A DNA stretch of 64,000 bases, taken from positions 9,132-73,131 of the forward strand of contig CAMUBZ010000003.1 in assembly GCA_947087275.1 (NCBI GenBank), in the 5' to 3' direction. The first letter of the stretch is position 1. Each line of letters starts with the position of its first letter. Below the pieces are notes generated by a model. The model made no database searches and was not told where the DNA came from. It saw nothing but the letters and a program-made list of their open reading frames with translations. A program made the position numbers and the translations under genes. Of the stretch, positions 6,885-55,920 are shown in pieces. Origin of the DNA: an uncultured Candidatus Saccharibacteria bacterium. Its GTDB lineage: Bacteria > Patescibacteriota > Saccharimonadia > Saccharimonadales > Saccharimonadaceae.

Positions 6885-7563
6885 CTTGCATATTAGTATG
6901 ATGTCGTTGACTGGGCTGTTTATTGGGGAAAGCCTTTTCCAAACGGTTGTTTAACTTCTTTTTAACTTTGTTATTATTGCCAGCCAGAACTTTTTGGACG
7001 CGTCGAGAAATCTCCTCAGTGGCATCAGGCTGGGTAGCGCCAACCGTAACGCGCACACCTAAAATCAGCCATAGAGAAAGTAAGATATCACAAACCAGCC
7101 AAGCAAATAAAATACCTGCCGCCAAAAGTAAGAGTGGCGAGTAAAGGCTATCAAACAGGTTGTAGAAGAAAGGTGTAGTAACTTCAACAATTAAAATACC
7201 AGCCAAACCGAAGGACAAGACCGAGCTCATACAAATACGTCCGTTGATGTTGACGGACTTCTCGGAATAGTCCCACCAACGGACGCGAAATAGCTTTTCC
7301 ATAATGAAACTAGCACTGTATTCCAAAACGGCTCCTCCAACCAACGCTACGCAAAAAATGGCAAGAGGACTCTCGGCTTGATTGAGCAAAAGCGAGATAA
7401 GCACGGCGCCAGTACCATAAATCGGACAAATTGGCCCAACTAGAAAACCCCGATTAACAAACTTTTTGTGGTTGATAAGACTAATACAAACTTCCATCAA
7501 CCAGCCAGCAAAAGAATAAAGCATAAATAATAAGAACCAAATTGCAATTTTTTCAAGCATCAT
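6871..7563 (-). CDS. multi-pass membrane protein, PF06541-like (putative ABC-transporter type IV / CmpB-like)
   Basis: N-terminal YSFAGWLMEV and RGFLVGPICPIYGTG motifs; about 6 TM helices. Confidence 0.55.
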   Translation of the reverse strand: MMLEKIAIWFLLFMLYSFAGWLMEVCISLINHKKFVNRGFLVGPICPIYGTGAVLISLLLNQAESPLAIFCVALVGGAVLEYSASFIMEKLFRVRWWDYSEKSVNINGRICMSSVLSFGLAGILIVEVTTPFFYNLFDSLYSPLLLLAAGILFAWLVCDILLSLWLILGVRVTVGATQPDATEEISRRVQKVLAGNNNKVKKKLNNRLEKAFPNKQPSQRHHTNMQEKSK

Positions 7564-8713
7564 CTACCTCTATCTTTCCGATTAAATTTGTGCTTTCTGC
7601 TTCGGGTAAAGTTTCGACATTCTTGAGTTTGCGTTCAATCTGGCGTGAGGCAGTCTCGGCATCGCTAATCTTGTTGGCGGTTTCTTGAAGTTTTTTCTTG
7701 GTGGCGGCAAGCAAATCGCCAAACTTAGAGAATTGGGATTTGACAGCGCCAAGGGTTTGCCAAACTTCGGCCGAACGTTTTTCGATGGCGACGCTGCGGA
7801 ATCCCATGGTGAGGCCAGACAAAATCATCGGGAGCGTGGACGGCGAGGCAAGAGCAACATTGTACTTTTGGCGAATCTCGTCGGACAGACCAGGTATACG
7901 CAGAATCTCTGCATAAAGACTTTCGGTGGGGACAAACATCACGCCAAAATCCGTGGTAGCAGGTGGGTCAAGATATTTAGTAGAGATTTTCTTGGCCTGT
8001 TCTTTGACGTCCACAGTCAAAGCCTTGCGAAATTGCTCGATTTCGGCTTTCTCGCCATGATCATAGGCATTAAGCAAACGAGCATAATTTTCGACCGGAA
8101 ACTTGGAATCGATCGGTAGAAAAACCAGCTTTTCTTCTCTGCCTGGCATTTTGATGGCAAATTCTACCCGGTCGCTGCTGCCAGACTTAGTAATAACATT
8201 CTCTTGATATTGATCCGGCGAAAGACAATCGGAAATAATATTGCCAAGCTGAACCTCACCGTAAATCCCGCGAGTTTTGACGCCCTCCATGACCTTTTTG
8301 AGGTCGCCAACGCCATGGGCGAGGTTGCGCATCTCGCCCAGACCCTGATAAACCTGCGTTAATTGCCCAGAAATAGTTTTGAAACTCTCATTAAAACGTT
8401 GTTCAACCGATTTCTGCAGTTTTTCATCAACGGTCTGGCGCATTTCCTCCAACTTCTTGGAGTTGTCGTCTTGCAGGCTCTTGACACGACTATCTACGGT
8501 GCGCTGAATGCCTTGGAGGTTATCCGAGATTTCCTTACGATTCTCGCGGAATTCACCTTCGATTTTGGGAGCCAGTTTGTCGAGTTCGCCCTCGACGCGG
8601 ATGAGGCGCTCTTCGAGACGTGAAGTATCAACTCGTGCCACAGGCTTGCGTATAAGAAGCATCAGAAGCAGGACGACGATAACAATACCCAGTATGACCA
8701 GAATGATATCCAT
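7553..8713 (-). CDS. rmuC: DNA recombination protein RmuC
   Basis: N-terminal TM helix, long coiled coil and a C-terminal RmuC nuclease-like domain (FVPTESLYAE). Start set to ATG at 8713; the upstream MCYNTL codons are the promoter TGCTATAAT. Confidence 0.8.
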   Translation of the reverse strand: MDIILVILGIVIVVLLLMLLIRKPVARVDTSRLEERLIRVEGELDKLAPKIEGEFRENRKEISDNLQGIQRTVDSRVKSLQDDNSKKLEEMRQTVDEKLQKSVEQRFNESFKTISGQLTQVYQGLGEMRNLAHGVGDLKKVMEGVKTRGIYGEVQLGNIISDCLSPDQYQENVITKSGSSDRVEFAIKMPGREEKLVFLPIDSKFPVENYARLLNAYDHGEKAEIEQFRKALTVDVKEQAKKISTKYLDPPATTDFGVMFVPTESLYAEILRIPGLSDEIRQKYNVALASPSTLPMILSGLTMGFRSVAIEKRSAEVWQTLGAVKSQFSKFGDLLAATKKKLQETANKISDAETASRQIERKLKNVETLPEAESTNLIGKIEVDDA

Positions 8714-8719
8714 AAGAGT

Positions 8720-8728
8720 ATTATAGCA
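8720..8728 (-). promoter_or_regulatory. extended -10 box (TGCTATAAT) 6 nt upstream of the ATG at 8713; candidate leaderless promoter
   Basis: Minus strand reads TGCTATAATACTCTTATG. Confidence 0.45.
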
Positions 8729-8732
8729 CACT

Positions 8733-9987: not shown

Positions 9988-10075
9988 TATGAGAGAACAA
10001 CATGTAAGCATGTTTACATGTTGTTCCGAATCGACGCTCATACCAGACGACGTTAGTCGCCTGGCTATGTAGGAG
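9988..10075 (+). repeat. 3' add-on module (two hairpins) ending in a second TATGTAGGAG
   Basis: Hairpins at 9995-10026 and 10043-10064; direct repeat TATGTAGGAG at 9978-9987 and 10066-10075. Homologous modules follow copies C, F and H. Confidence 0.75.
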
Positions 10076-10105
10076 TGAGAGGGGAGCAGGCACCAATATA
10101 GCGCC

Positions 10106-29518: not shown

Positions 29519-29601
29519 ATTCTTCCTCCTTGTTGAGGAATGCCTGTCCAAGAAAAAGACACATTATCAAAGATTTAATGTACGGCACCCCCATTTCTTC
29601 C

Positions 29602-29630
29602 ATTATAGCACACTTTACCATAAAAGTCAA
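29602..29630 (-). promoter_or_regulatory. consensus promoter TTGACT-17-TATAAT with TGn
   Basis: -35 at 29625-29630 and -10 at 29602-29607 on the minus strand; drives 29018-29518. Confidence 0.6.
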
Positions 29631-29648
29631 TACGAATTATGTTTTCCC

Positions 29649-29876
29649 GTGCGCAGCGGGATGATACCTCCAGACGCTGGTAGACTATGGCGTATTGGTC
29701 AGAATGGCTATAACTGGGCATTACGAGCAATGTCTATTCATACCGATGGTACAGGATATCTTAGCGCTTATGACCTAAAGATTGACGCTAATATAGTTTA
29801 TCCGTCAGAGGGGCCAAGTTATCGTTTCTACGGTCTCTCCCTCCGCTGCCTTAGTACTGTATTAGGTATGTAGGAG
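29649..29876 (+). repeat. orphan FISUMP/DUF1566-like C-terminal cassette, copy D
   Basis: Conserved borders. Frame VRSGMIPPDAG...YNWALRA...AYDL...LSLRCLSTVLGM*. Confidence 0.9.
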
Positions 29877-29959
29877 ATGAGTAAAGCAAAAAAGAAGTCT
29901 CTGCGGTAGGTGACTAACGCACCGTGCAGAAACTTCATTACTTTTATTATATCAAAAGA

Positions 29960-30361
29960 TTATTGAATGTCAATAATTTGACCACGACGATTTATAAACT
30001 TAATTTGTTTGATTTCCTTGATTGCAGTAAAACACACTCTTAGCTTTTTCTCAATTGCTTTGTCTGGGATATGTTTCATGCGCCGTGAGTCAAAGATAAT
30101 AGAATCCGATTGCCACTTACCTCGTTTGAGATTCCTTTCTACCGTTTTTAAGTTGCTCGCTCTTGGTGACTTCATTTCCCAAACGACACCATCAACTAAA
30201 CAATCCGCCGTTTGTCTTCCCTTTTTATCTATTGTTTTTAAGAACTCCACTACATGGCCGTACTTGATTAGAACTTTAGCTGTTTCCTGTTCATGAGGCC
30301 AAACGTCGACTCCGACAGGAATGATGATTTTGCCCTGTTTTTCAGTTTTAGGTTTCCTCAT
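29960..30361 (-). CDS. PD-(D/E)xK nuclease-like small protein (restriction-endonuclease fold)
   Basis: Motif E...AD-x10-WEMK, 133 aa. Paralogs at 33726-34127 and 44263-44649, with a conserved leader TTATGCTAGGCTCAGGAG-ATG. Confidence 0.55.
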   Translation of the reverse strand: MRKPKTEKQGKIIIPVGVDVWPHEQETAKVLIKYGHVVEFLKTIDKKGRQTADCLVDGVVWEMKSPRASNLKTVERNLKRGKWQSDSIIFDSRRMKHIPDKAIEKKLRVCFTAIKEIKQIKFINRRGQIIDIQ

Positions 30362-30440
30362 CTCCTGAGCCTAGCATAAAATCAGAAAAATTAGCAAGCA
30401 TAGGCATGATGTTTTTGTATATTTTCCCATAAGCCATACA

Positions 30441-30653
30441 CTCCTACATACCTAATACAGTACTAAGGCAGCGGAGGGGGAAAGCGCCCCAACGATGATC
30501 TGGAATATCTGACGGGTTGACTGTTATATTAAAATAGAGGTCATACGCATCACTAACGGATGCAGCTGTGCGTGATGACCACCAGAGACTACCATAGCCG
30601 GCATTCCGGAAAGTGCCAGTAGTATTCGCCGGATTAACATTCCCGCTGCGCAC
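30441..30653 (-). repeat. orphan FISUMP/DUF1566-like C-terminal cassette, copy E
   Basis: Conserved borders. Frame VRSGNVNPANTTGTFRNAGYGSLWWSSR...AYDL...FPLRCLSTVLGM*. Confidence 0.9.
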
Positions 30654-30674
30654 GAAAGACAATGTTCAGCATCT

Positions 30675-31730
30675 TCATTGCATATGCAAAAATTCTAAGC
30701 AATGTGGCATCTTATCTCGAATTGTATCTACAACAGCTTGTTGCTCTGCATACGGTAGCGGGTTAGCAAATAGCTCATTAATGTGTTCAACCATAGCCTT
30801 TAAGCTAACACCCCAGCGTATAGGTGGAGCAAACTGGCCTTCTGTGGATGAAAAAATGTATAATCTCGAGTATCGCAAAATAATTTCCGCAAATGCATCT
30901 AAGATTTCGTGCAGCTCGTATGGATGAATATTATATTTATGTTTTTTATGATAAATAGTCTTCTTCACAAAGGCGTCATCCGGTTCAATGATAGTCTCTA
31001 TTTCAAATTTTTTACCATCTATCCATTCTTCTCTATGGAAATTGTCGCGTTGATACTCCCTAAGTAACTTATAATTATTAGCATAATAGTCGCCACAACG
31101 ATAAAGCTTATCGTATAAGTCTAATAGTTTCTTTTTAAACTCCTTGACTGCTTTGAAATTATAAATCATTACTTTACGATTATTTACAATCAAAGATTGT
31201 GTGACTTGATCAGATTCGAATTTCTCGATATTAATCATCAAATTGTCGCTTAAAGTTGCTTGTCTAGTCTTATAGTCTTTCGAACGTATAGCAACAAATT
31301 CCCAGCCAGTATCTTTTGCAATCTCACGCCATCGCTCTTGAGTTGAGTTCTCTAAATCGGGAAAATTACGCATTCTTCTTAAGAACGCGCCGCCGCTCGT
31401 ATGATCAGCCCCGGAGTTCGCAAACAGACTACGCATACTCAGCATCAGGGCGTCAAAACAACTTTTTTGCAAGAGATTTACCGCTCGCATATTCTCGGGG
31501 TCCAAGATGCCTACGCTGGTCACTTCGTACTTCTCGCCGTCTTTTTCAACAATCTCAGAAGGAAAGTGGTGCGCCTCCTCATATTTATCACATGCGTGCA
31601 TTAAAATATGATCAATGATCTGCTGCTGGATAATTCTTTCTATGCAGAGCGCCAGATCATCTACCACATACTCTTTCGCTTTATCTTTACCAAAGAATAC
31701 TGTATTTACATCTTCAATACTATCGATCAT
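30675..31730 (-). CDS. hypothetical protein (351 aa), accessory
   Basis: Long ORF with protein-like composition and no recognisable motif. AT-rich compared with neighbouring core genes. Confidence 0.55.
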   Translation of the reverse strand: MIDSIEDVNTVFFGKDKAKEYVVDDLALCIERIIQQQIIDHILMHACDKYEEAHHFPSEIVEKDGEKYEVTSVGILDPENMRAVNLLQKSCFDALMLSMRSLFANSGADHTSGGAFLRRMRNFPDLENSTQERWREIAKDTGWEFVAIRSKDYKTRQATLSDNLMINIEKFESDQVTQSLIVNNRKVMIYNFKAVKEFKKKLLDLYDKLYRCGDYYANNYKLLREYQRDNFHREEWIDGKKFEIETIIEPDDAFVKKTIYHKKHKYNIHPYELHEILDAFAEIILRYSRLYIFSSTEGQFAPPIRWGVSLKAMVEHINELFANPLPYAEQQAVVDTIRDKMPHCLEFLHMQ

Positions 31731-33631: not shown

Positions 33632-33725
33632 AGCGTTTCTTGCCCATGAAAAAGAGGGCTGACCTAATGTTATACAACACTAGGACGCCCTCAATAATTT
33701 GATTATATCATAGACGCTAATACTG

Positions 33726-34127
33726 TCAATTATTTTTAAATTTCTGCAGCTTTCCAGTTTTGCTTATAATATGTAAATTACGTACTTTGCGAGTACTCCA
33801 AAAACAGGTTGAAAGCTGTTTAATTGCTAGAATATCTGAGCCCTTGAGCCGGCGCAAATCCATGATAACGTTACTAGATTGGCTAGCTGCACGATAAAAC
33901 AGGCGCTCAATTGCTTTTCTAGTATTTACTGTTGGGCTTTTGGCCTCCCATTCTAGTCCATCCATCACAAAGCCTGGTCGTTTATCTTTTGGCGTATGAG
34001 ATGCGGGAATCAGCTCCAGTCTTTTAGATAAGTTAGTATAAAACAGAATTGTGTCCATTTCTTGAGGCTCAGGTTTGGCTCCGTTAGGAATTATCTTCCC
34101 TCGTTCAGCGTGTTGAATTTGTTTCAT
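33726..34127 (-). CDS. PD-(D/E)xK nuclease-like small protein, paralog of 29960-30361
   Basis: Same length (133 aa), WEAKSP motif and a conserved leader TTTATGCTGGGCTCAGAGA-ATG. The first acidic PD position is PG here. Confidence 0.5.
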   Translation of the reverse strand: MKQIQHAERGKIIPNGAKPEPQEMDTILFYTNLSKRLELIPASHTPKDKRPGFVMDGLEWEAKSPTVNTRKAIERLFYRAASQSSNVIMDLRRLKGSDILAIKQLSTCFWSTRKVRNLHIISKTGKLQKFKNN

Positions 34128-37103: not shown

Positions 37104-37208
37104 AATGCTCCTTTTTAATATCAAATTCTGTAGTTGATTTTATCACATTTTGTAGAGGCCTGCAAGAGGTTTTGCAAGAAAAGTGGTCAAATTTGACCCT
37201 ATAATTCC

Positions 37209-37237
37209 ATTATAGCACACATTATAGAAAAAGTCAA
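37209..37237 (-). promoter_or_regulatory. consensus promoter TTGACT-17-TATAAT with TGn; duplicate of the promoter at 55886-55914
   Basis: The 38 nt at 37205-37242 are identical, as reverse complement, to 55881-55918. Confidence 0.6.
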
Positions 37238-37290
37238 TAGTTTCACCAAAAATGGCGCCCTCTGAGCGCCATAAATGGGGTGAAAATTGA

Positions 37291-43914: not shown

Positions 43915-44004
43915 TTCCTACATAGCCACATCACTACGTTCTGTGGTATGAGCGTCGTCTCGAAAGCAAAAGAACAAGTTCACTTGTTCTTTTGCTTTAC
44001 TCAA
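43915..44004 (-). repeat. 3' add-on module (two hairpins) following copy F
   Basis: Hairpins at 43963-43998 and 43926-43946. Ends in TATGTAGGAA (43915-43924 on the plus strand). Confidence 0.7.
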
Positions 44005-44214
44005 CTCCTACATACCTAATACAGTACTAAGGCAGCGGAGGGAGTAACCGTAAGAGAGGAATCGCGGGCTATTGGATGGCTGCACAGTAAGATTTCCTAT
44101 TACAAGATTATATGCATTCTGCGCGCTTTCTAGCCATGAAGACCACCAACATCCGCTAAAAACTGTGCCCTTTAAAGTGCTAGCAGTTCTTAAATCAATA
44201 TACCCGCTGCGCAC
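44005..44214 (-). repeat. orphan FISUMP/DUF1566-like C-terminal cassette, copy F
   Basis: Conserved borders. Frame MRSGYIDLRTAS...CWWSSW...AYNL...YSLRCLSTVLGM*. Confidence 0.9.
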
Positions 44215-44262
44215 GAAGTAAAAATGTTGTACATTTTACAACATATATGCTAAAGTAGGGTA

Positions 44263-44649
44263 GTGAAGTTTAATCTCATCATTCCTACTGGCCTCAAGCC
44301 AAAGCCGACGAAGGACGAAATGGCTGTTGCTGAGGTGCTATCGAACTATTTTCATAGCGACATCAAATTTGTTGCTCGCGGCATTTCGCATACTCCAGAT
44401 ATTTTTATTATACGGCTTAATCAATACTGGGAAATCAAAAATATACGTGGCAATGGGCGACGTACTATTGCAAATGTACTACGAGAAGCCTAATATCAAG
44501 CAGAGAATCTTGTTATCTCACTAACGCGTACATCAATGAGTGCGCAACAGGCCTCAGGTAGAATTCGACAGTACATCAGAGAAGGACGCACGCGTATCAA
44601 ACGAATAGTGATTATTACAAAAGCCAAAAAAGTGCTTGTCATAAAATAG
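44263..44649 (+). pseudogene. PD-(D/E)xK nuclease-like paralog interrupted by one in-frame TAA (44491-44493)
   Basis: Motif TPD-x11-WEIK. The same frame stays open after the TAA and still aligns to the paralogs (QAENLVISLTR versus QSDSIIFDSRR). Confidence 0.6.
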
Positions 44650-44735
44650 AACTTGTGATATTATAAGGACAATAAGAGACGGATGCGATACTGAACTGAA
44701 TCAATAGACCGTCTCTTTTTATATAAAACTTTTTC

Positions 44736-44960
44736 GTGCGCAGCGGGTATATCTTCCCAACTGTTGAGAGTGGTCACAATGCGGGTTCGCGAGCTATGGG
44801 CGCCACTGGAGACTATTGGACATCGCGAGCATCTTCTACATCACCTTCTAATGCCTATTGGCTTGAAATTACTACAACAGTGCTTCCGTCACGCACTCCG
44901 CTCAATCGCTACAATAGTTTCCCCCTCCGCTGCCTTAGTACTGTATTAGGTATGTAGGAG
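44736..44960 (+). repeat. orphan FISUMP/DUF1566-like C-terminal cassette, copy G
   Basis: Conserved borders. Frame MRSGYIFPTVES...YWTSRASS...AYWL...FPLRCLSTVLGM*. Confidence 0.9.
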
Positions 44961-44995: not shown

Positions 44996-45121
44996 TTGCT
45001 ATTTTAAAAAGCATAAGTTATACTAAGGACAGTTCGGAAGAACATAAGGCTAACTGCGAGCCAACGATAAGTTGAGAGCTTATATGTTCAAAAAGTCGCC
45101 CTGCGTTGAAGGCGATTTTTT
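44996..45121 (+). ncRNA. orphan promoter-hairpin-terminator unit; candidate small RNA
   Basis: TTGCTA-17-TATACT (44996-45024), an imperfect hairpin at 45040-45090, and a terminator stem 45095-45115 with TTTTTT. No ORF of 60 aa or more. Confidence 0.35.
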
Positions 45122-45351: not shown

Positions 45352-45436
45352 GCGAATGAAGTAAAAAGGGCTTGCACTTTTTACTTCTGAGCCGACGTCC
45401 ATACCAGTCAACGTTAGTTGACTGGCTATGTAGGAG
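45352..45436 (+). repeat. 3' add-on module (two hairpins) ending in a second TATGTAGGAG
   Basis: Hairpins at 45358-45387 and 45404-45425. Direct repeat TATGTAGGAG at 45342-45351 and 45427-45436. Confidence 0.75.
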
Positions 45437-45444
45437 TGGAGTAA

Positions 45445-46060: not shown

Positions 46061-46113
46061 AACGTACACCATCCTTTTTAATATTTGGGAAGATAGAGAA
46101 GTCCCATGCCTCC

Positions 46114-46142
46114 ATTATATCACACCTTATCAAAAAAGTCAA
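46114..46142 (-). promoter_or_regulatory. consensus promoter TTGACT-17-TATAAT
   Basis: -35 at 46137-46142 and -10 at 46114-46119 on the minus strand. Confidence 0.6.
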
Positions 46143-46183
46143 GTGCTTGAGGCGCTGAACTTGACTTTGATGAATAATATTGG

Positions 46184-51981: not shown

Positions 51982-52168
51982 GTGCGCAGCGGGTATGTCA
52001 ATCCGGCTAACTCGGCTGGTACCTTTAGGAACGCTGGCAACAACGGCAACTGGTGGGCGTCGCGAGCCTACTCGTCCACTACCCACGCGTACAACCTCAA
52101 CGTTTATACGACGGTGAATCCGTCAAACAACAGCAATCGTTACGCCGGTTTCTCCCTCCGCTGCCTTA
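51982..52168 (+). repeat. FISUMP/DUF1566-like cassette, copy K, 3'-truncated after CCGCTGCCTTA
   Basis: Frame VRSGYVNPANSAGTFRNAGNNGNWWASRAYSSTTHAYNL...FSLRCL. Homology ends at 52168 and unrelated sequence with a promoter follows. Confidence 0.85.
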
Positions 52169-55826: not shown

Positions 55827-55885
55827 TCTCCCACCTAATTAACACTTATGTTTAGTATAACATAGAAGATTTAGCACGAGAACTA

Positions 55886-55914
55886 TTGACTTTTTCTATA
55901 ATGTGTGCTATAAT
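55886..55914 (+). promoter_or_regulatory. consensus promoter TTGACT-17-TATAAT with TGn, 6 nt upstream of the ATG at 55921
   Basis: The 38 nt at 55881-55918 are identical to the minus-strand promoter at 37205-37242. Confidence 0.6.
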
Positions 55915-55920
55915 GGAAGG

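What the first reader, a model, noticed from the sequence alone, without database searches (positions are those of the whole stretch)
29649..30653. A PD-(D/E)xK nuclease-like gene is bracketed by inverted cassettes, twice
Copy D(+) and copy E(-) face each other with their invariant 3' borders pointing inward. They give perfect inverted repeats of about 39 bp (CCCTCCGCTGCC...GTAGGAG) flanking a 564-bp segment (29877-30440). That segment holds only the nuclease-like gene 29960-30361 with its leader.

A second paralog, 44263-44649, now carries an in-frame stop. It is bracketed by F(-) and G(+) with their 5' borders pointing inward, giving an 18-bp inverted repeat ATACCCGCTGCGCACGAA at 44198-44215 and 44730-44747. 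The third paralog (33726-34127) has no flanking cassette.

A restriction-endonuclease-fold protein repeatedly embedded between inverted copies of an invariant sequence suggests three possibilities: a nuclease that targets the cassette borders to start gene conversion or homing, a composite mobile module, or an invertible segment.
Basis: partly seen in the sequence, partly recalled or inferred. Interest (0 to 1): 0.8.

Follow-up and report, generated by a model that had tools for sequence, protein, structure and literature searches.

The report
Toxin-like nuclease–RNA module between silent cassettes
A small nuclease-fold gene in a Saccharibacteria chromosome does sit between inverted copies of a repeated gene fragment, twice, but it belongs to a widespread self-contained "nuclease plus hairpin RNA" module that probably lodged there, rather than an enzyme that cuts the repeats.

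Summary
Cassettes D and E give a perfect 38-bp inverted repeat around a 564-bp segment. Cassettes F and G give a 20-bp inverted repeat around a paralog with an in-frame TAA. Bracketing of 2 of 3 paralogs has permutation P of about 0.001.

The window is a Candidatus Saccharibacteria core chromosome. The cassettes are start-less 3' fragments (last ~70 aa) of a secreted Fib_succ_major-type surface protein. Their borders are invariant and their interiors are hypervariable and mosaic, like silent donor copies.

The 133-aa protein has a confident PD-(D/E)xK fold. Its only significant PDB neighbour is the tRNase toxin CdiA-CT of Burkholderia pseudomallei 1026b.

Every family member carries a sigma70 consensus promoter over its last codons, followed by a ~48-nt hairpin RNA supported by covariation. 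This nuclease+RNA module occurs without cassettes in 79 of 80 metagenome loci, including Coriobacteriia, and in changing contexts. In cassette-bearing Saccharibacteria, 6-7 of 9 copies abut a cassette.

No inversion and no recombinase were found.

Best reading: a toxin/RNA-antitoxin-like selfish module lodged in cassette-pair spacers. A border-cutting role is not excluded but has no support.

The parts
29649..29876 (+). Cassette D. A start-less 74-codon 3' fragment (VRSG...LRCLSTVLGM*) of a Fib_succ_major-type surface-protein gene. The invariant 5' border is GTGCGCAGCGGG and the invariant 3' border ends at 29876.
29839..29876 (.). Left arm of the perfect 38-bp inverted repeat. The right arm is 30441-30478.
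29888..29936 (-). Nuclease-associated hairpin RNA plus T-run: an 11-bp outer stem, a 2/4-nt internal loop, a 4-bp inner stem and a 7-nt loop. It also terminates the nuclease gene. It ends 12 nt from the 3' border of cassette D.
   Evidence: (61.4 bits, E 4e-13)
29946..29973 (-). Sigma70 consensus promoter TTGACA-N16-TATAAT. It overlaps the last codons and the stop codon of the nuclease gene and points at the hairpin RNA.
29960..30361 (-). n1: a 133-aa stand-alone PD-(D/E)xK protein of Pfam CdiA_C (PF18451). The catalytic residues E24, D53, E62-x-K64 and Q84 are conserved.
30368..30397 (-). Promoter box of n1 (TTGCTA-N18-TAGGCT). Its -10 element lies 6 nt from the ATG. The same box precedes n2 and occurs in cassette-pair spacers of other MAGs.
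   Evidence: inferred from sequence
30441..30653 (-). Cassette E, a 69-codon 3' fragment with the same borders as D. Its interior is only about 45% identical to D.
33726..34127 (-). n2: a paralog (29% identical to n1, CdiA_C E 5e-9) with no adjacent cassette. It has its own stop-overlapping promoter (33702-33729) and hairpin (33649-33692).
44005..44214 (-). Cassette F (68 codons). Its 5' border faces n3. A hairpin at 44224-44244 lies just upstream of that border.
44263..44649 (+). n3: a divergent paralog with an in-frame TAA at 44491-44493, so a pseudogene. A 46%-identical, also broken, copy sits between divergent cassettes in another species (L023).
44636..44720 (+). n3 stop-overlapping promoter-like site (TTGTCA-N17-TATTAT, 44636-44664) and hairpin plus T-run (44675-44720). 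They end 15 nt before the 5' border of cassette G.
44736..44960 (+). Cassette G (73 codons). Together with F it gives the 20-bp perfect inverted repeat 44198-44217 / 44733-44752.

Best explanation
The DNA between the inverted cassettes is one copy of a self-contained two-part module. It has its own promoter and encodes a stand-alone 130-aa PD-(D/E)xK protein of the CdiA-CT(Bp1026b)/PF18451 tRNase-toxin family. A consensus sigma70 promoter overlaps the gene's last codons and drives a ~48-nt structured hairpin RNA, which also terminates the gene. I read this as a toxin plus RNA-antitoxin-like (type III-like) selfish or defence module.

The cassettes are promoterless, start-less 3' fragments of a secreted Fib_succ_major-type surface-protein gene. 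They are kept as a dispersed donor library with invariant borders for segmental gene conversion. They usually lie as inverted pairs with short spacers.

The nuclease modules have lodged in such spacers: n1 in a convergent pair and n3 in a divergent pair. These spacers are among the few neutral, recombination-prone sites in a compact genome. Once there, an addictive module would also protect the flanking cassettes from deletion. On this reading the nuclease does not cut the borders and the segment does not invert.

Shown: the anatomy, the fold, the RNA structure and promoter conservation, the distribution, and the adjacency statistics.
Inferred: toxin/antitoxin function, the insertion history, and the stabilising effect.
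For: Nuclease identity:
- Pfam CdiA_C at 47.9 bits against a cut-off of 26.6.
- AlphaFold2 model with pLDDT 89.9.
- The only significant PDB fold match is 4G6V_A, CdiA-CT of Burkholderia pseudomallei (the Bp1026b toxin) (E 8e-7, TM 0.69). It is also the only significant profile-sequence match, E 0.003.
- E24, E62, K64 and Q84 are invariant and D53 is nearly invariant in 46 homologs.
- Characterised PF18451 members are tRNases.

RNA partner:
- All paralogs inspected (28-77% aa identity) have TTGACA-N16-18-TAnnnT over the stop codon, then a hairpin and a T-run.
- 41 of 61 unique loci have this promoter, against 1.2 in shuffles.
- The Asp codon inside the -35 element is GAC 48: GAT 2, against about 1:1 at four other conserved Asp positions. 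The preceding Ile is ATT 40: ATC 0.
- A covariance model finds the hairpin about 30 nt after the gene in nearly every one of 89 sources (97 hits in 554 kb).
- 91.6% of cells are paired, 10 of 15 pairs show compensatory changes, and the covariation score is 0.385 against 0.169 in shuffles (0 of 500) and at most 0.104 for slid partners.
- The apical motif is conserved between Saccharibacteria and Coriobacteriia while the outer stem covaries.
- Some loci have tandem hairpin copies.
- There is no protein immunity ORF beside n1.

Autonomy and mobility:
- The ~520-bp module is 86-88% identical in four different contexts, with context breakpoints at its ends.
- Typical contexts are restriction-modification islands, a Y1 transposase, a reverse transcriptase, and a tRNA gene.
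- 79 of 80 metagenome loci have no cassette within 4 kb.

Cassettes as silent copies:
- Indels are all multiples of 3, stops lie 2-63 codons upstream, and borders are invariant at synonymous sites within and across species.
- A full-length 569-aa secreted protein ends in a cassette.
- One locus has a constant 52-aa part joined to about 37 different mosaic cassettes.
- Inverted pairs with 18-442-nt spacers are the norm.
- The 564-bp and 521-bp segments are almost exactly one module each.
Against: - The adjacency is stronger than a neutral 'any intergenic site' model predicts. In-window P is about 0.001-0.006. Six of nine family genes in cassette-bearing genomes directly abut a cassette or the full-length gene, and a seventh has only a tRNA gene in between. 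In n1, L050, L010 and L035b the hairpin end faces a cassette 3' border; the gap is 12 nt for n1 and about 25, 190 and 160 nt for the others. This could reflect a functional link.
- Neither toxicity of the protein, nor expression of the RNA, nor an antitoxin role has been shown. The hairpin could be just a conserved terminator.
- The module is absent from PADLOC.
- Something sequence-specific must keep the 12-nt and 26-38-nt borders invariant across species. No such factor has been identified, so a nuclease role cannot be excluded.
- L010, L023 and L035 were fetched because they hold cassettes, which biases the 6-7 of 9 count.
Confidence: 0.5

Rival explanations
1. Recombination initiator. The nuclease, perhaps controlled by its hairpin RNA, nicks or cuts the invariant cassette borders and so starts gene conversion from silent cassettes into an expression locus. 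This would resemble HO endonuclease at the yeast MAT locus, or the restriction enzymes recently shown to drive gonococcal pilin variation.
For: - The protein has a PD-(D/E)xK fold with intact catalytic residues.
- Adjacency to cassettes is non-random in this window and recurs in other cassette-bearing Saccharibacteria, including next to the 3' end of a full-length gene.
- The borders are invariant at nucleotide level across species, as a protein recognition site would be.
- There is a precedent for restriction-type nucleases cutting pilE/pilS to drive antigenic variation (PMC13321361).
Against: - The family is found mostly where there are no cassettes: 79 of 80 loci, and Coriobacteriia.
- The closest characterised relatives cut tRNA, not DNA.
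- n2 has no cassette nearby.
- n3 and its L023 counterpart are pseudogenes, yet their flanking cassettes and borders are intact.
- Most cassettes (7 of 11 here, and nearly all in CAYXCA01) have no nuclease gene nearby.
- The palindromes inside the borders (TGCGCA, AGTACT) are not avoided elsewhere in the window.
Confidence: 0.12
2. Composite cargo module. The two cassettes act as portable homology arms. Any DNA lying between two cassettes can be moved between loci, strains or species by double crossover, with uptake by natural transformation. The nuclease gene is cargo that spreads this way.
For: - The borders are 100% identical across species.
- The n1 and n3 types each recur next to cassettes in unrelated genomic contexts: window against L050 and L037, and window against L023.
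- Spacers of cassette pairs hold varied cargo behind a shared promoter box.
- Saccharibacteria are reported to be naturally competent (abstract of PMC10187176, seen).
Against: - The junctions between module and cassette differ between the window and L050.
- Only one side is shared.
- The 5' border is only 12-20 nt long, which is short for RecA-mediated exchange.
- No direct polymorphism (filled against empty site) was recovered, because assemblies break at the cassettes.
- There are no target-site duplications and no transposase.
Confidence: 0.2
3. Invertible segment. A site-specific recombinase flips 29877-30440 (or 29649-30653) and 44215-44735 between the inverted repeats, as in a shufflon or a phase-variation switch.
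For: There are perfect inverted repeats of 38 bp and 20 bp. A tyrosine recombinase lies next to a convergent cassette pair in one distant MAG (L022).
Against: - All contigs recovered from other samples are collinear with the window.
- No recombinase, invertase or transposase is encoded anywhere in the 64 kb.
- Inversion would not fuse either cassette to an upstream reading frame.
- The same repeats are scattered over 42 kb among essential genes.
Confidence: 0.03
4. Coincidence of density. Cassettes fill so many intergenic regions in this lineage that small genes get bracketed by chance.
For: There are 11 cassettes in 64 kb. The ndk gene in L007, rpsG-rpsL here, and a DUF5674 operon are also bracketed. 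About 24% of the genes in the window have a cassette within 250 nt (my count).
Against: Permutation gives P of about 0.001-0.006. The adjacency recurs in other genomes.
Confidence: 0.08

Closest known systems
CdiA-CT(II) of Burkholderia pseudomallei 1026b and Myxococcus SitA3 (Pfam PF18451, PD-(D/E)xK tRNase toxin domains)
   Same: Pfam family match, predicted fold (TM 0.69 to 4G6V_A) and the E...D...ExK catalytic arrangement.
   Different: Those are C-terminal domains of large delivered polymorphic toxins, each followed by a protein immunity gene. Here the domain is the whole 130-aa protein. It has no delivery part and no immunity ORF, and it is followed by a conserved hairpin RNA with its own promoter.
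Type III toxin-antitoxin systems (ToxIN, CptIN, TenpIN)
   Same: A small nuclease-type protein is genetically coupled to a short structured RNA separated by, or including, a terminator. Some loci have tandem RNA copies. The module is mobile and found in islands. This is a 'works like' comparison and is inferred.
   Different: From my own knowledge: known type III toxins have the ToxN/AbiQ fold, and their RNA repeats lie upstream of the toxin gene. Here the fold is PD-(D/E)xK and the RNA is a single hairpin downstream, driven by a promoter inside the gene's 3' end. Function is untested and PADLOC has no model for it.
Toxin-antitoxin cassettes inside chromosomal integron arrays (Vibrio superintegrons)
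   Same: From my own knowledge: addictive modules interspersed among repeated cassettes, proposed to prevent loss of the array. That is the same logic proposed here for a module lodged between silent cassettes.
   Different: There are no attC sites and no integrase here. The cassettes are gene fragments rather than complete promoterless genes, and the antitoxin would be RNA.
Neisseria pilE/pilS antigenic variation with the SmaCla 3' repeat and restriction-enzyme cleavage (PMC13321361)
   Same: Dispersed, truncated, promoterless donor copies share conserved coding blocks and a conserved 3' flank that extends beyond the stop codon. Variants are mosaic. In Neisseria, PD-(D/E)xK-type nucleases contribute breaks.
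   Different: The protein here is a Fib_succ_major/lectin-like surface protein, not a pilin. The copies are scattered one by one or in inverted pairs between core genes. No expression locus was seen in this window. There is no evidence that the neighbouring nuclease cuts the cassettes.
HO endonuclease and MAT/HML/HMR cassettes of yeast; free-standing homing endonuclease genes
   Same: The concept of a site-specific nuclease starting gene conversion from silent cassettes, and of a nuclease gene sitting next to its target.
   Different: No cleavage was shown here. The gene family is mostly found in genomes without the supposed target. The borders next to the gene are intact and identical to all the others.
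Shufflons and invertible phase-variation segments (for example R64 pilV)
   Same: Alternative C-terminal coding segments arranged as inverted pairs with conserved short repeats at their 5' ends.
   Different: There is no recombinase gene, no constant upstream reading frame, no observed inversion, and the copies are dispersed among essential genes.

Membership tests
PF18451 CdiA_C / CdiA-CT(Bp1026b)-like PD-(D/E)xK nuclease domain | Sequence match above Pfam's gathering score | tested here: met
   n1 scores 47.9 bits and n2 36.6 bits against a cut-off of 26.6. The two halves of n3 match the family profile collinearly, at E 8e-4 and 0.11.
PF18451 CdiA_C / CdiA-CT(Bp1026b)-like PD-(D/E)xK nuclease domain | Restriction-endonuclease-like fold superposable on 4G6V chain A | tested here: met
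   The model has pLDDT 89.9 and pTM 0.84. Foldseek against 4G6V_A gives E 8.4e-7, TM 0.69, and no other match below E 0.1.
PF18451 CdiA_C / CdiA-CT(Bp1026b)-like PD-(D/E)xK nuclease domain | Conserved acidic and Lys catalytic residues (E...D...ExK) | tested here: met
   E24, E62, K64 and Q84 are invariant and D53 is nearly invariant in 46 homologs.
PF18451 CdiA_C / CdiA-CT(Bp1026b)-like PD-(D/E)xK nuclease domain | tRNA-cleaving activity | not testable with these tools
   Known only for CdiA-CT Bp1026b and SitA3.
Polymorphic toxin system (CdiA, SitA, MuF-type) | The toxin domain sits at the C-terminus of a large delivery protein | tested here: not met
   All 118 homologs are 73-178 aa stand-alone proteins. 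A PHROG family (phrog_13257) whose profile is 405 positions long matches the domain at its C-terminal end, profile positions ~275-397, but the proteins here have no such N-terminal part.
Polymorphic toxin system (CdiA, SitA, MuF-type) | A cognate protein immunity gene lies immediately downstream | tested here: not met
   No ORF follows n1 before cassette D, and the downstream neighbour varies among loci.
Type III toxin-antitoxin system | A structured antitoxin RNA is encoded next to the toxin gene | tested here: inconclusive
   A conserved hairpin RNA with its own promoter is present, with strong covariation. Its antitoxin role is untested.
Type III toxin-antitoxin system | Tandem RNA repeats upstream of a ToxN/AbiQ-fold endoRNase | tested here: not met
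   The RNA is downstream and usually single. The fold is PD-(D/E)xK.
Cassette-dedicated recombination or homing nuclease | Co-occurrence of the nuclease family with its target repeats across genomes | tested here: not met
   79 of 80 metagenome loci have no cassette within 4 kb, and Coriobacteriia have the gene. Within cassette-bearing Saccharibacteria, 6-7 of 9 genes abut a cassette.
Cassette-dedicated recombination or homing nuclease | Sequence-specific cleavage of the cassette border | not testable with these tools
   This needs biochemistry. The palindromes in the borders show no avoidance elsewhere in the window.
Invertible segment / shufflon | Inverted repeats flank the segment | tested here: met
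   Perfect inverted repeats of 38 bp and 20 bp.
Invertible segment / shufflon | A site-specific recombinase is encoded nearby | tested here: not met
   Pfam scans of 60 ORFs, covering most of the larger ORFs of the window, found none.
Invertible segment / shufflon | Both orientations are present in populations | tested here: not met
   Seven contigs carry the gene. All that were read are collinear with the window. These are short-read assemblies, so the test is weak.
Silent-cassette gene-conversion system (pilE/pilS-like), for the flanking cassettes | Many truncated, promoterless copies with conserved borders | tested here: met
   There are 11 copies here and more than 30 in related MAGs. All start at VRSG with stops just upstream.
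Silent-cassette gene-conversion system (pilE/pilS-like), for the flanking cassettes | A full-length expressed gene ends in the same cassette | tested here: inconclusive
   One was found in a related metagenome contig (P0372, 569 aa with a signal peptide). None was found in this window.
Silent-cassette gene-conversion system (pilE/pilS-like), for the flanking cassettes | Mosaic replacement of the variable part at a fixed locus | tested here: met
   At the locus downstream of gyrA, the constant part is 96-100% identical in 20 of the 37 variants and 79-83% in the rest; about 37 different cassettes are joined to it and they share sub-segments.
Transposon / MITE-like composite element | Terminal inverted repeats plus target-site duplication and a transposase | tested here: not met
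   Inverted repeats are present. No direct repeat flanks either unit (read) and no transposase is in the window.

The most novel reading that the evidence does not exclude
The CdiA-CT-like nuclease and its hairpin RNA form a new kind of RNA-controlled nuclease. In cassette-bearing Saccharibacteria it is stationed at cassette borders and makes the break, or drives the antisense transcription, that starts gene conversion of a host-binding surface lectin. This would be a bacterial counterpart of HO/MAT switching, in an epibiont that must keep adapting to its host's surface.
Probability: 0.1. Interest if true: 0.9.

Novelty: new variant of a known kind. Interest (0 to 1): 0.6.

Why it matters
Three points matter.

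1. A toxin-type tRNase domain, otherwise known as the tip of delivered polymorphic toxins, exists as a stand-alone gene. It is hard-wired to a conserved small RNA whose promoter is written into the gene's last codons. It occurs in at least two phyla and is absent from Rfam and PADLOC. If the RNA is an antitoxin, this is a new type III-like toxin-antitoxin family.

2. The flanking cassettes point to a silent-copy diversification system for a lectin-like surface protein in Saccharibacteria. Attachment to host bacteria is central to the lifestyle of these organisms. The system is functionally parallel to diversity-generating retroelements but works by recombination.

3. The repeated lodging of the nuclease module between cassettes gives a testable link between selfish modules and upkeep or turnover of a variation library. 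Tests could distinguish stabilisation, hitch-hiking on homology arms, and break induction.

Tried and rejected
- **Diversity-generating retroelement.** Rejected. Cassettes differ by indels and at all four bases. The window has no reverse transcriptase, and the 351-aa ORF next to E has no reverse-transcriptase domain.
- **UGA recoding.** Two in-frame TGA codons lie between the 351-aa ORF and cassette E. Rejected, because rpoB and rpoC are intact under table 11.
- **Group II intron.** The 5' border starts GUGCG. Rejected because the cassettes show coding constraint (all indels are multiples of 3).
- **Known RNA families.** None matched at gathering score in the window or in 7 loci, apart from tRNAs. 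Nothing matched for the hairpin at E up to 10.
- **Parent gene via the constant region of the gyrA-downstream copy.** Only 82-128-aa fragments were found. The full-length gene came from the exhaustive profile search instead.
- **Hypervariation of D and E between samples.** None. All 49 differences in L002 lie outside the cassettes, 46 of them clustered in rpoB at the contig end.
- **Empty-site or inverted alleles.** Assemblies break at the cassette 3' border, so no information was gained. The look-up for the SpoU-like neighbour of cassette F found nothing.
- **The 'D8' repeats after cassettes A, H and F as relics of the nuclease hairpin.** The covariance model does not match them.
- **Restriction-site avoidance of the border palindromes TGCGCA and AGTACT.** Not seen.
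- **Y1 transposase as the mover of the module.** It lies outside the shared 520-bp block.
- **PADLOC defence models.** No hit.
- **Nuclease remnants in other cassette-pair spacers.** Only L023 has one.
Full report
**What is in the sequence**

The window carries 11 copies of a ~210-230-bp cassette (A-K). The 5' border is GTGCGCAGCGGG, found 11 times against 0.28 expected. The 3' border is CTCCGCTGCCTTAGTACTGTATTAGGTATGTAGGAG, found 10 times against 0 expected.

D(+) 29649-29876 and E(-) 30441-30653 converge. They form a perfect 38-bp inverted repeat (29839-29876 / 30441-30478) inside an 82-nt, 79% complementary repeat, with 564 nt between the arms.

F(-) 44005-44214 and G(+) 44736-44960 diverge.

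ORF 29960-30361(-) lies between D and E. A paralog at 44263-44649(+) with an in-frame TAA (44491-44493) lies between F and G. A third paralog at 33726-34127(-) has no cassette nearby.

I shuffled the order of 63 genes and 11 cassettes, and separately relabelled which genes are the paralogs. Either way, two of three paralogs are bracketed on both sides with P = 0.001-0.002.

**Where this is**

Exact matches to the 3' border occur only in Candidatus Saccharibacteria MAGs, plus one MAG labelled Bacillota.

The window is core chromosome. It holds rpoB, rpoC, fusA, rpsL, rpsG, rpsP, rnc, leuS-like, gatA/B, GAPDH, trigger factor, RmuC and UvrD. It has no recombinase, transposase or reverse transcriptase.

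**What the cassettes are**

- Each cassette encodes 68-75 aa, VRSG...PLRCLSTVLGM*.
- All indels between copies are multiples of three. In-frame stops lie 2-63 codons upstream, and no start codon or ribosome-binding site is conserved.
- The borders show no synonymous variation in more than 30 copies from several species.
- The cassette is the last third of a Fib_succ_major-type domain. The Pfam hit for copy K is weak, but the exhaustive profile search found full-length proteins ending in a cassette.
- The clearest is P0372: 569 aa, with a signal peptide and the motif ...CPKGWMLPTAG...PLYF|VRSG...LRCLSTV. Multi-domain giants were also found.
- Almost all other database members are 70-130-aa orphan fragments.
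- In other Saccharibacteria, a longer fragment downstream of gyrA has a constant 52-aa part (96-100% identical in 20 of the 37 variants, 79-83% in the rest) joined to about 37 different cassettes that share sub-segments.
- In related MAGs the cassettes mostly form inverted pairs with 18-442-nt spacers that hold hairpins and small cargo.

This is the anatomy of a silent-donor library for segmental gene conversion, as in pilS or vls. No expression locus lies in this window.

**What the gene is**

- n1 matches Pfam CdiA_C (PF18451) at 47.9 bits.
- With 46 homologs, AlphaFold2 gives pLDDT 89.9.
- The only significant PDB neighbour by fold or by sequence profile is 4G6V_A, the tRNase toxin CdiA-CT of Burkholderia pseudomallei (the Bp1026b toxin) (Foldseek E 8e-7, TM 0.69; profile E 0.003).
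- E24, D53, E62-x-K64 and Q84 are conserved.
- Characterised PF18451 members are tRNases carried at the tips of delivered toxins.
- Here the domain is the whole protein. All 118 homologs are 73-178 aa, from Saccharibacteria and from Eggerthella and Gordonibacter. No immunity ORF follows n1.

I aligned the n1 locus with orthologs from four other contexts. The stretch after the stop codon is more conserved than the coding sequence.

- Every paralog inspected, down to 28% aa identity and including the Coriobacteriia copies, has the same layout: TTGACA-N16-18-TAnnnT over its last codons, then a hairpin and a T-run.
- 41 of 61 unique loci carry that promoter, against 1.2 expected.
- The Asp codon inside the -35 hexamer is GAC 48: GAT 2, against about 1:1 at four other conserved Asp positions. 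The preceding Ile is ATT 40: ATC 0. This is selection on the DNA sequence, not on the protein.
- A covariance model built from 22 hairpins finds 97 copies in 554 kb, nearly all about 30 nt after a family gene. Some are in tandem.
- The structure has 91.6% paired cells, 10 of 15 pairs with compensatory changes, and a covariation score of 0.385 against 0.169 in shuffles (0 of 500) and at most 0.104 for slid controls.
- In the window this RNA is at 29888-29936(-), 12 nt from the border of cassette D. n2 and n3 have their own hairpin variants.
- Rfam has no such family.

**Is the gene tied to cassettes?**

At family level, no.

- 79 of 80 metagenome loci (426 kb) have no cassette within 4 kb.
- Close orthologs of n1 (73-75% identical) sit beside a Y1 transposase, in restriction-modification islands, beside a reverse transcriptase, or after a tRNA gene. 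The ~520-bp module is 86-88% identical between these contexts and the context breakpoints fall at its ends.

Within cassette-bearing Saccharibacteria, the adjacency does recur.

- L050 has a convergent cassette about 25 nt from the hairpin.
- L010 has a convergent cassette.
- L035 has a copy convergent with the full-length gene.
- L023 has an n3-type pseudogene between divergent cassettes.
- L037 has the order cassette, tRNA, nuclease.
- n2 and a second L035 copy are not adjacent to any cassette.

That is 6-7 of 9 copies. Three of these loci were ascertained through their cassettes, which biases the count.

Bracketing is not specific to this gene. The ndk gene is bracketed in L007. Here, rpsG-rpsL and a DUF5674 operon are bracketed too.

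**Mechanism**

The 564-bp and 521-bp segments are each almost exactly one module: promoter, ORF, internal promoter and hairpin. The simplest history is insertion of a mobile module into the short spacer of an existing convergent pair (D/E) and an existing divergent pair (F/G).

I read the module as a toxin plus RNA-antitoxin-like element. This is inferred from a toxin-family nuclease, the lack of a protein immunity gene, the hard-wired RNA, the island contexts and the mobility.

Spacers between silent cassettes are neutral and recombination-prone. An addictive module there would also guard its neighbours against deletion, as toxin-antitoxin cassettes are thought to do in integron arrays (my own knowledge).

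The alternatives rank as follows.

- **Border-cutting initiator.** This is attractive in view of the gonococcal restriction-enzyme precedent. It is weakened by the family's distribution, its tRNase relatives, the two pseudogenised n3 copies with intact flanks, and the many cassettes with no nuclease nearby.
- **Movement of cassette-flanked cargo by homologous recombination at the universal borders.** This remains plausible.
- **Inversion.** This has no support. The contigs are collinear and no recombinase is present.

**Verdict**

The proposed mechanisms are largely not supported.

The reinterpretation is more specific. This is a new stand-alone nuclease+RNA module that tends to lodge between silent surface-protein cassettes in Saccharibacteria.

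Function remains untested. The toxin/antitoxin reading and the reason for the adjacency are inferences.

Noticed in passing
window 9757-52168 (cassettes A-K); L035 3732-5441; L023 and L024 around 8000-8375: The cassette family as a whole looks like a dispersed silent-donor library for the C-terminal ~70 aa of a secreted Fib_succ_major-type surface protein. A full-length 569-aa gene exists in a related contig. A locus downstream of gyrA in other Saccharibacteria carries about 37 different mosaic cassettes behind a constant part.
   Followed up: partly
window 44996-45121 (+): Between cassettes G and H there is a promoter (TTGCTA-N17-TATACT), then about 70 nt, then an intrinsic terminator. This may be a small RNA gene. 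Rfam has no match.
   Followed up: no
window 10024-10077, 45385-45438 and about 43925-43975 (reverse strand): A 54-nt repeat lies downstream of cassettes A, H and F. It is a hairpin with a GTTA loop followed by GGCTATGTAGGAGTG, the same tail as the cassette 3' border. The nuclease-hairpin model does not match it.
   Followed up: partly
window 30654-30677: The 351-aa ORF 30675-31730(-) is in the same reading frame as cassette E, separated only by TGA AGA TGC TGA. It has no Fib_succ similarity, so this is probably coincidence.
   Followed up: partly
window 7553-8731 (-): A RmuC-family gene (PF02646) lies in the window. From my own knowledge, RmuC is linked to limiting inversion at short inverted repeats. 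That could matter in a genome full of inverted cassettes.
   Followed up: no
L022 4977-6129: In a MAG labelled Bacillota, a 190-aa tyrosine recombinase lies directly upstream of a convergent cassette pair whose copies lack the usual 3' tail. This may be a true shufflon-like variant of the system, or a mis-binned contig.
   Followed up: no
L010 289-639, L013 3784-4225, L014 2584-2848, L015 2232-2575: The spacers of divergent cassette pairs in several species share a 120-200-nt element (76-90% identical). It lies behind a promoter box that also precedes n1 (window 30355-30411) and n2. No Rfam family matches, and only a ~33-codon ORF is present.
   Followed up: partly
L071 434-522, L085 4399-4495, L115 3539-4591, L075 1221-1404: Some loci have tandem or extra copies of the nuclease-associated hairpin RNA. 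These resemble the repeat arrays of RNA antitoxins.
   Followed up: no
window 51982-52167: Cassette K lacks the conserved 3' tail after CTCCGCTGCCTTA. It is the copy most similar (76% aa) to the cassette of the full-length protein P0372.
   Followed up: no
window 29598-29632, 37205-37239, 46110-46144, 55881-55918 and others: A repeated ~35-nt element proved to be a family of near-consensus extended -10 promoters (TTGACT-N17-TGCTATAAT) in front of ordinary genes. It is not part of the cassette system.
   Followed up: partly
L030-L034 5176-6156: Orthologs of n1 in mouse-gut Saccharibacteria lie two genes upstream of a 326-aa reverse transcriptase, inside a restriction-modification island. No template/variable repeat pair was found.
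   Followed up: partly
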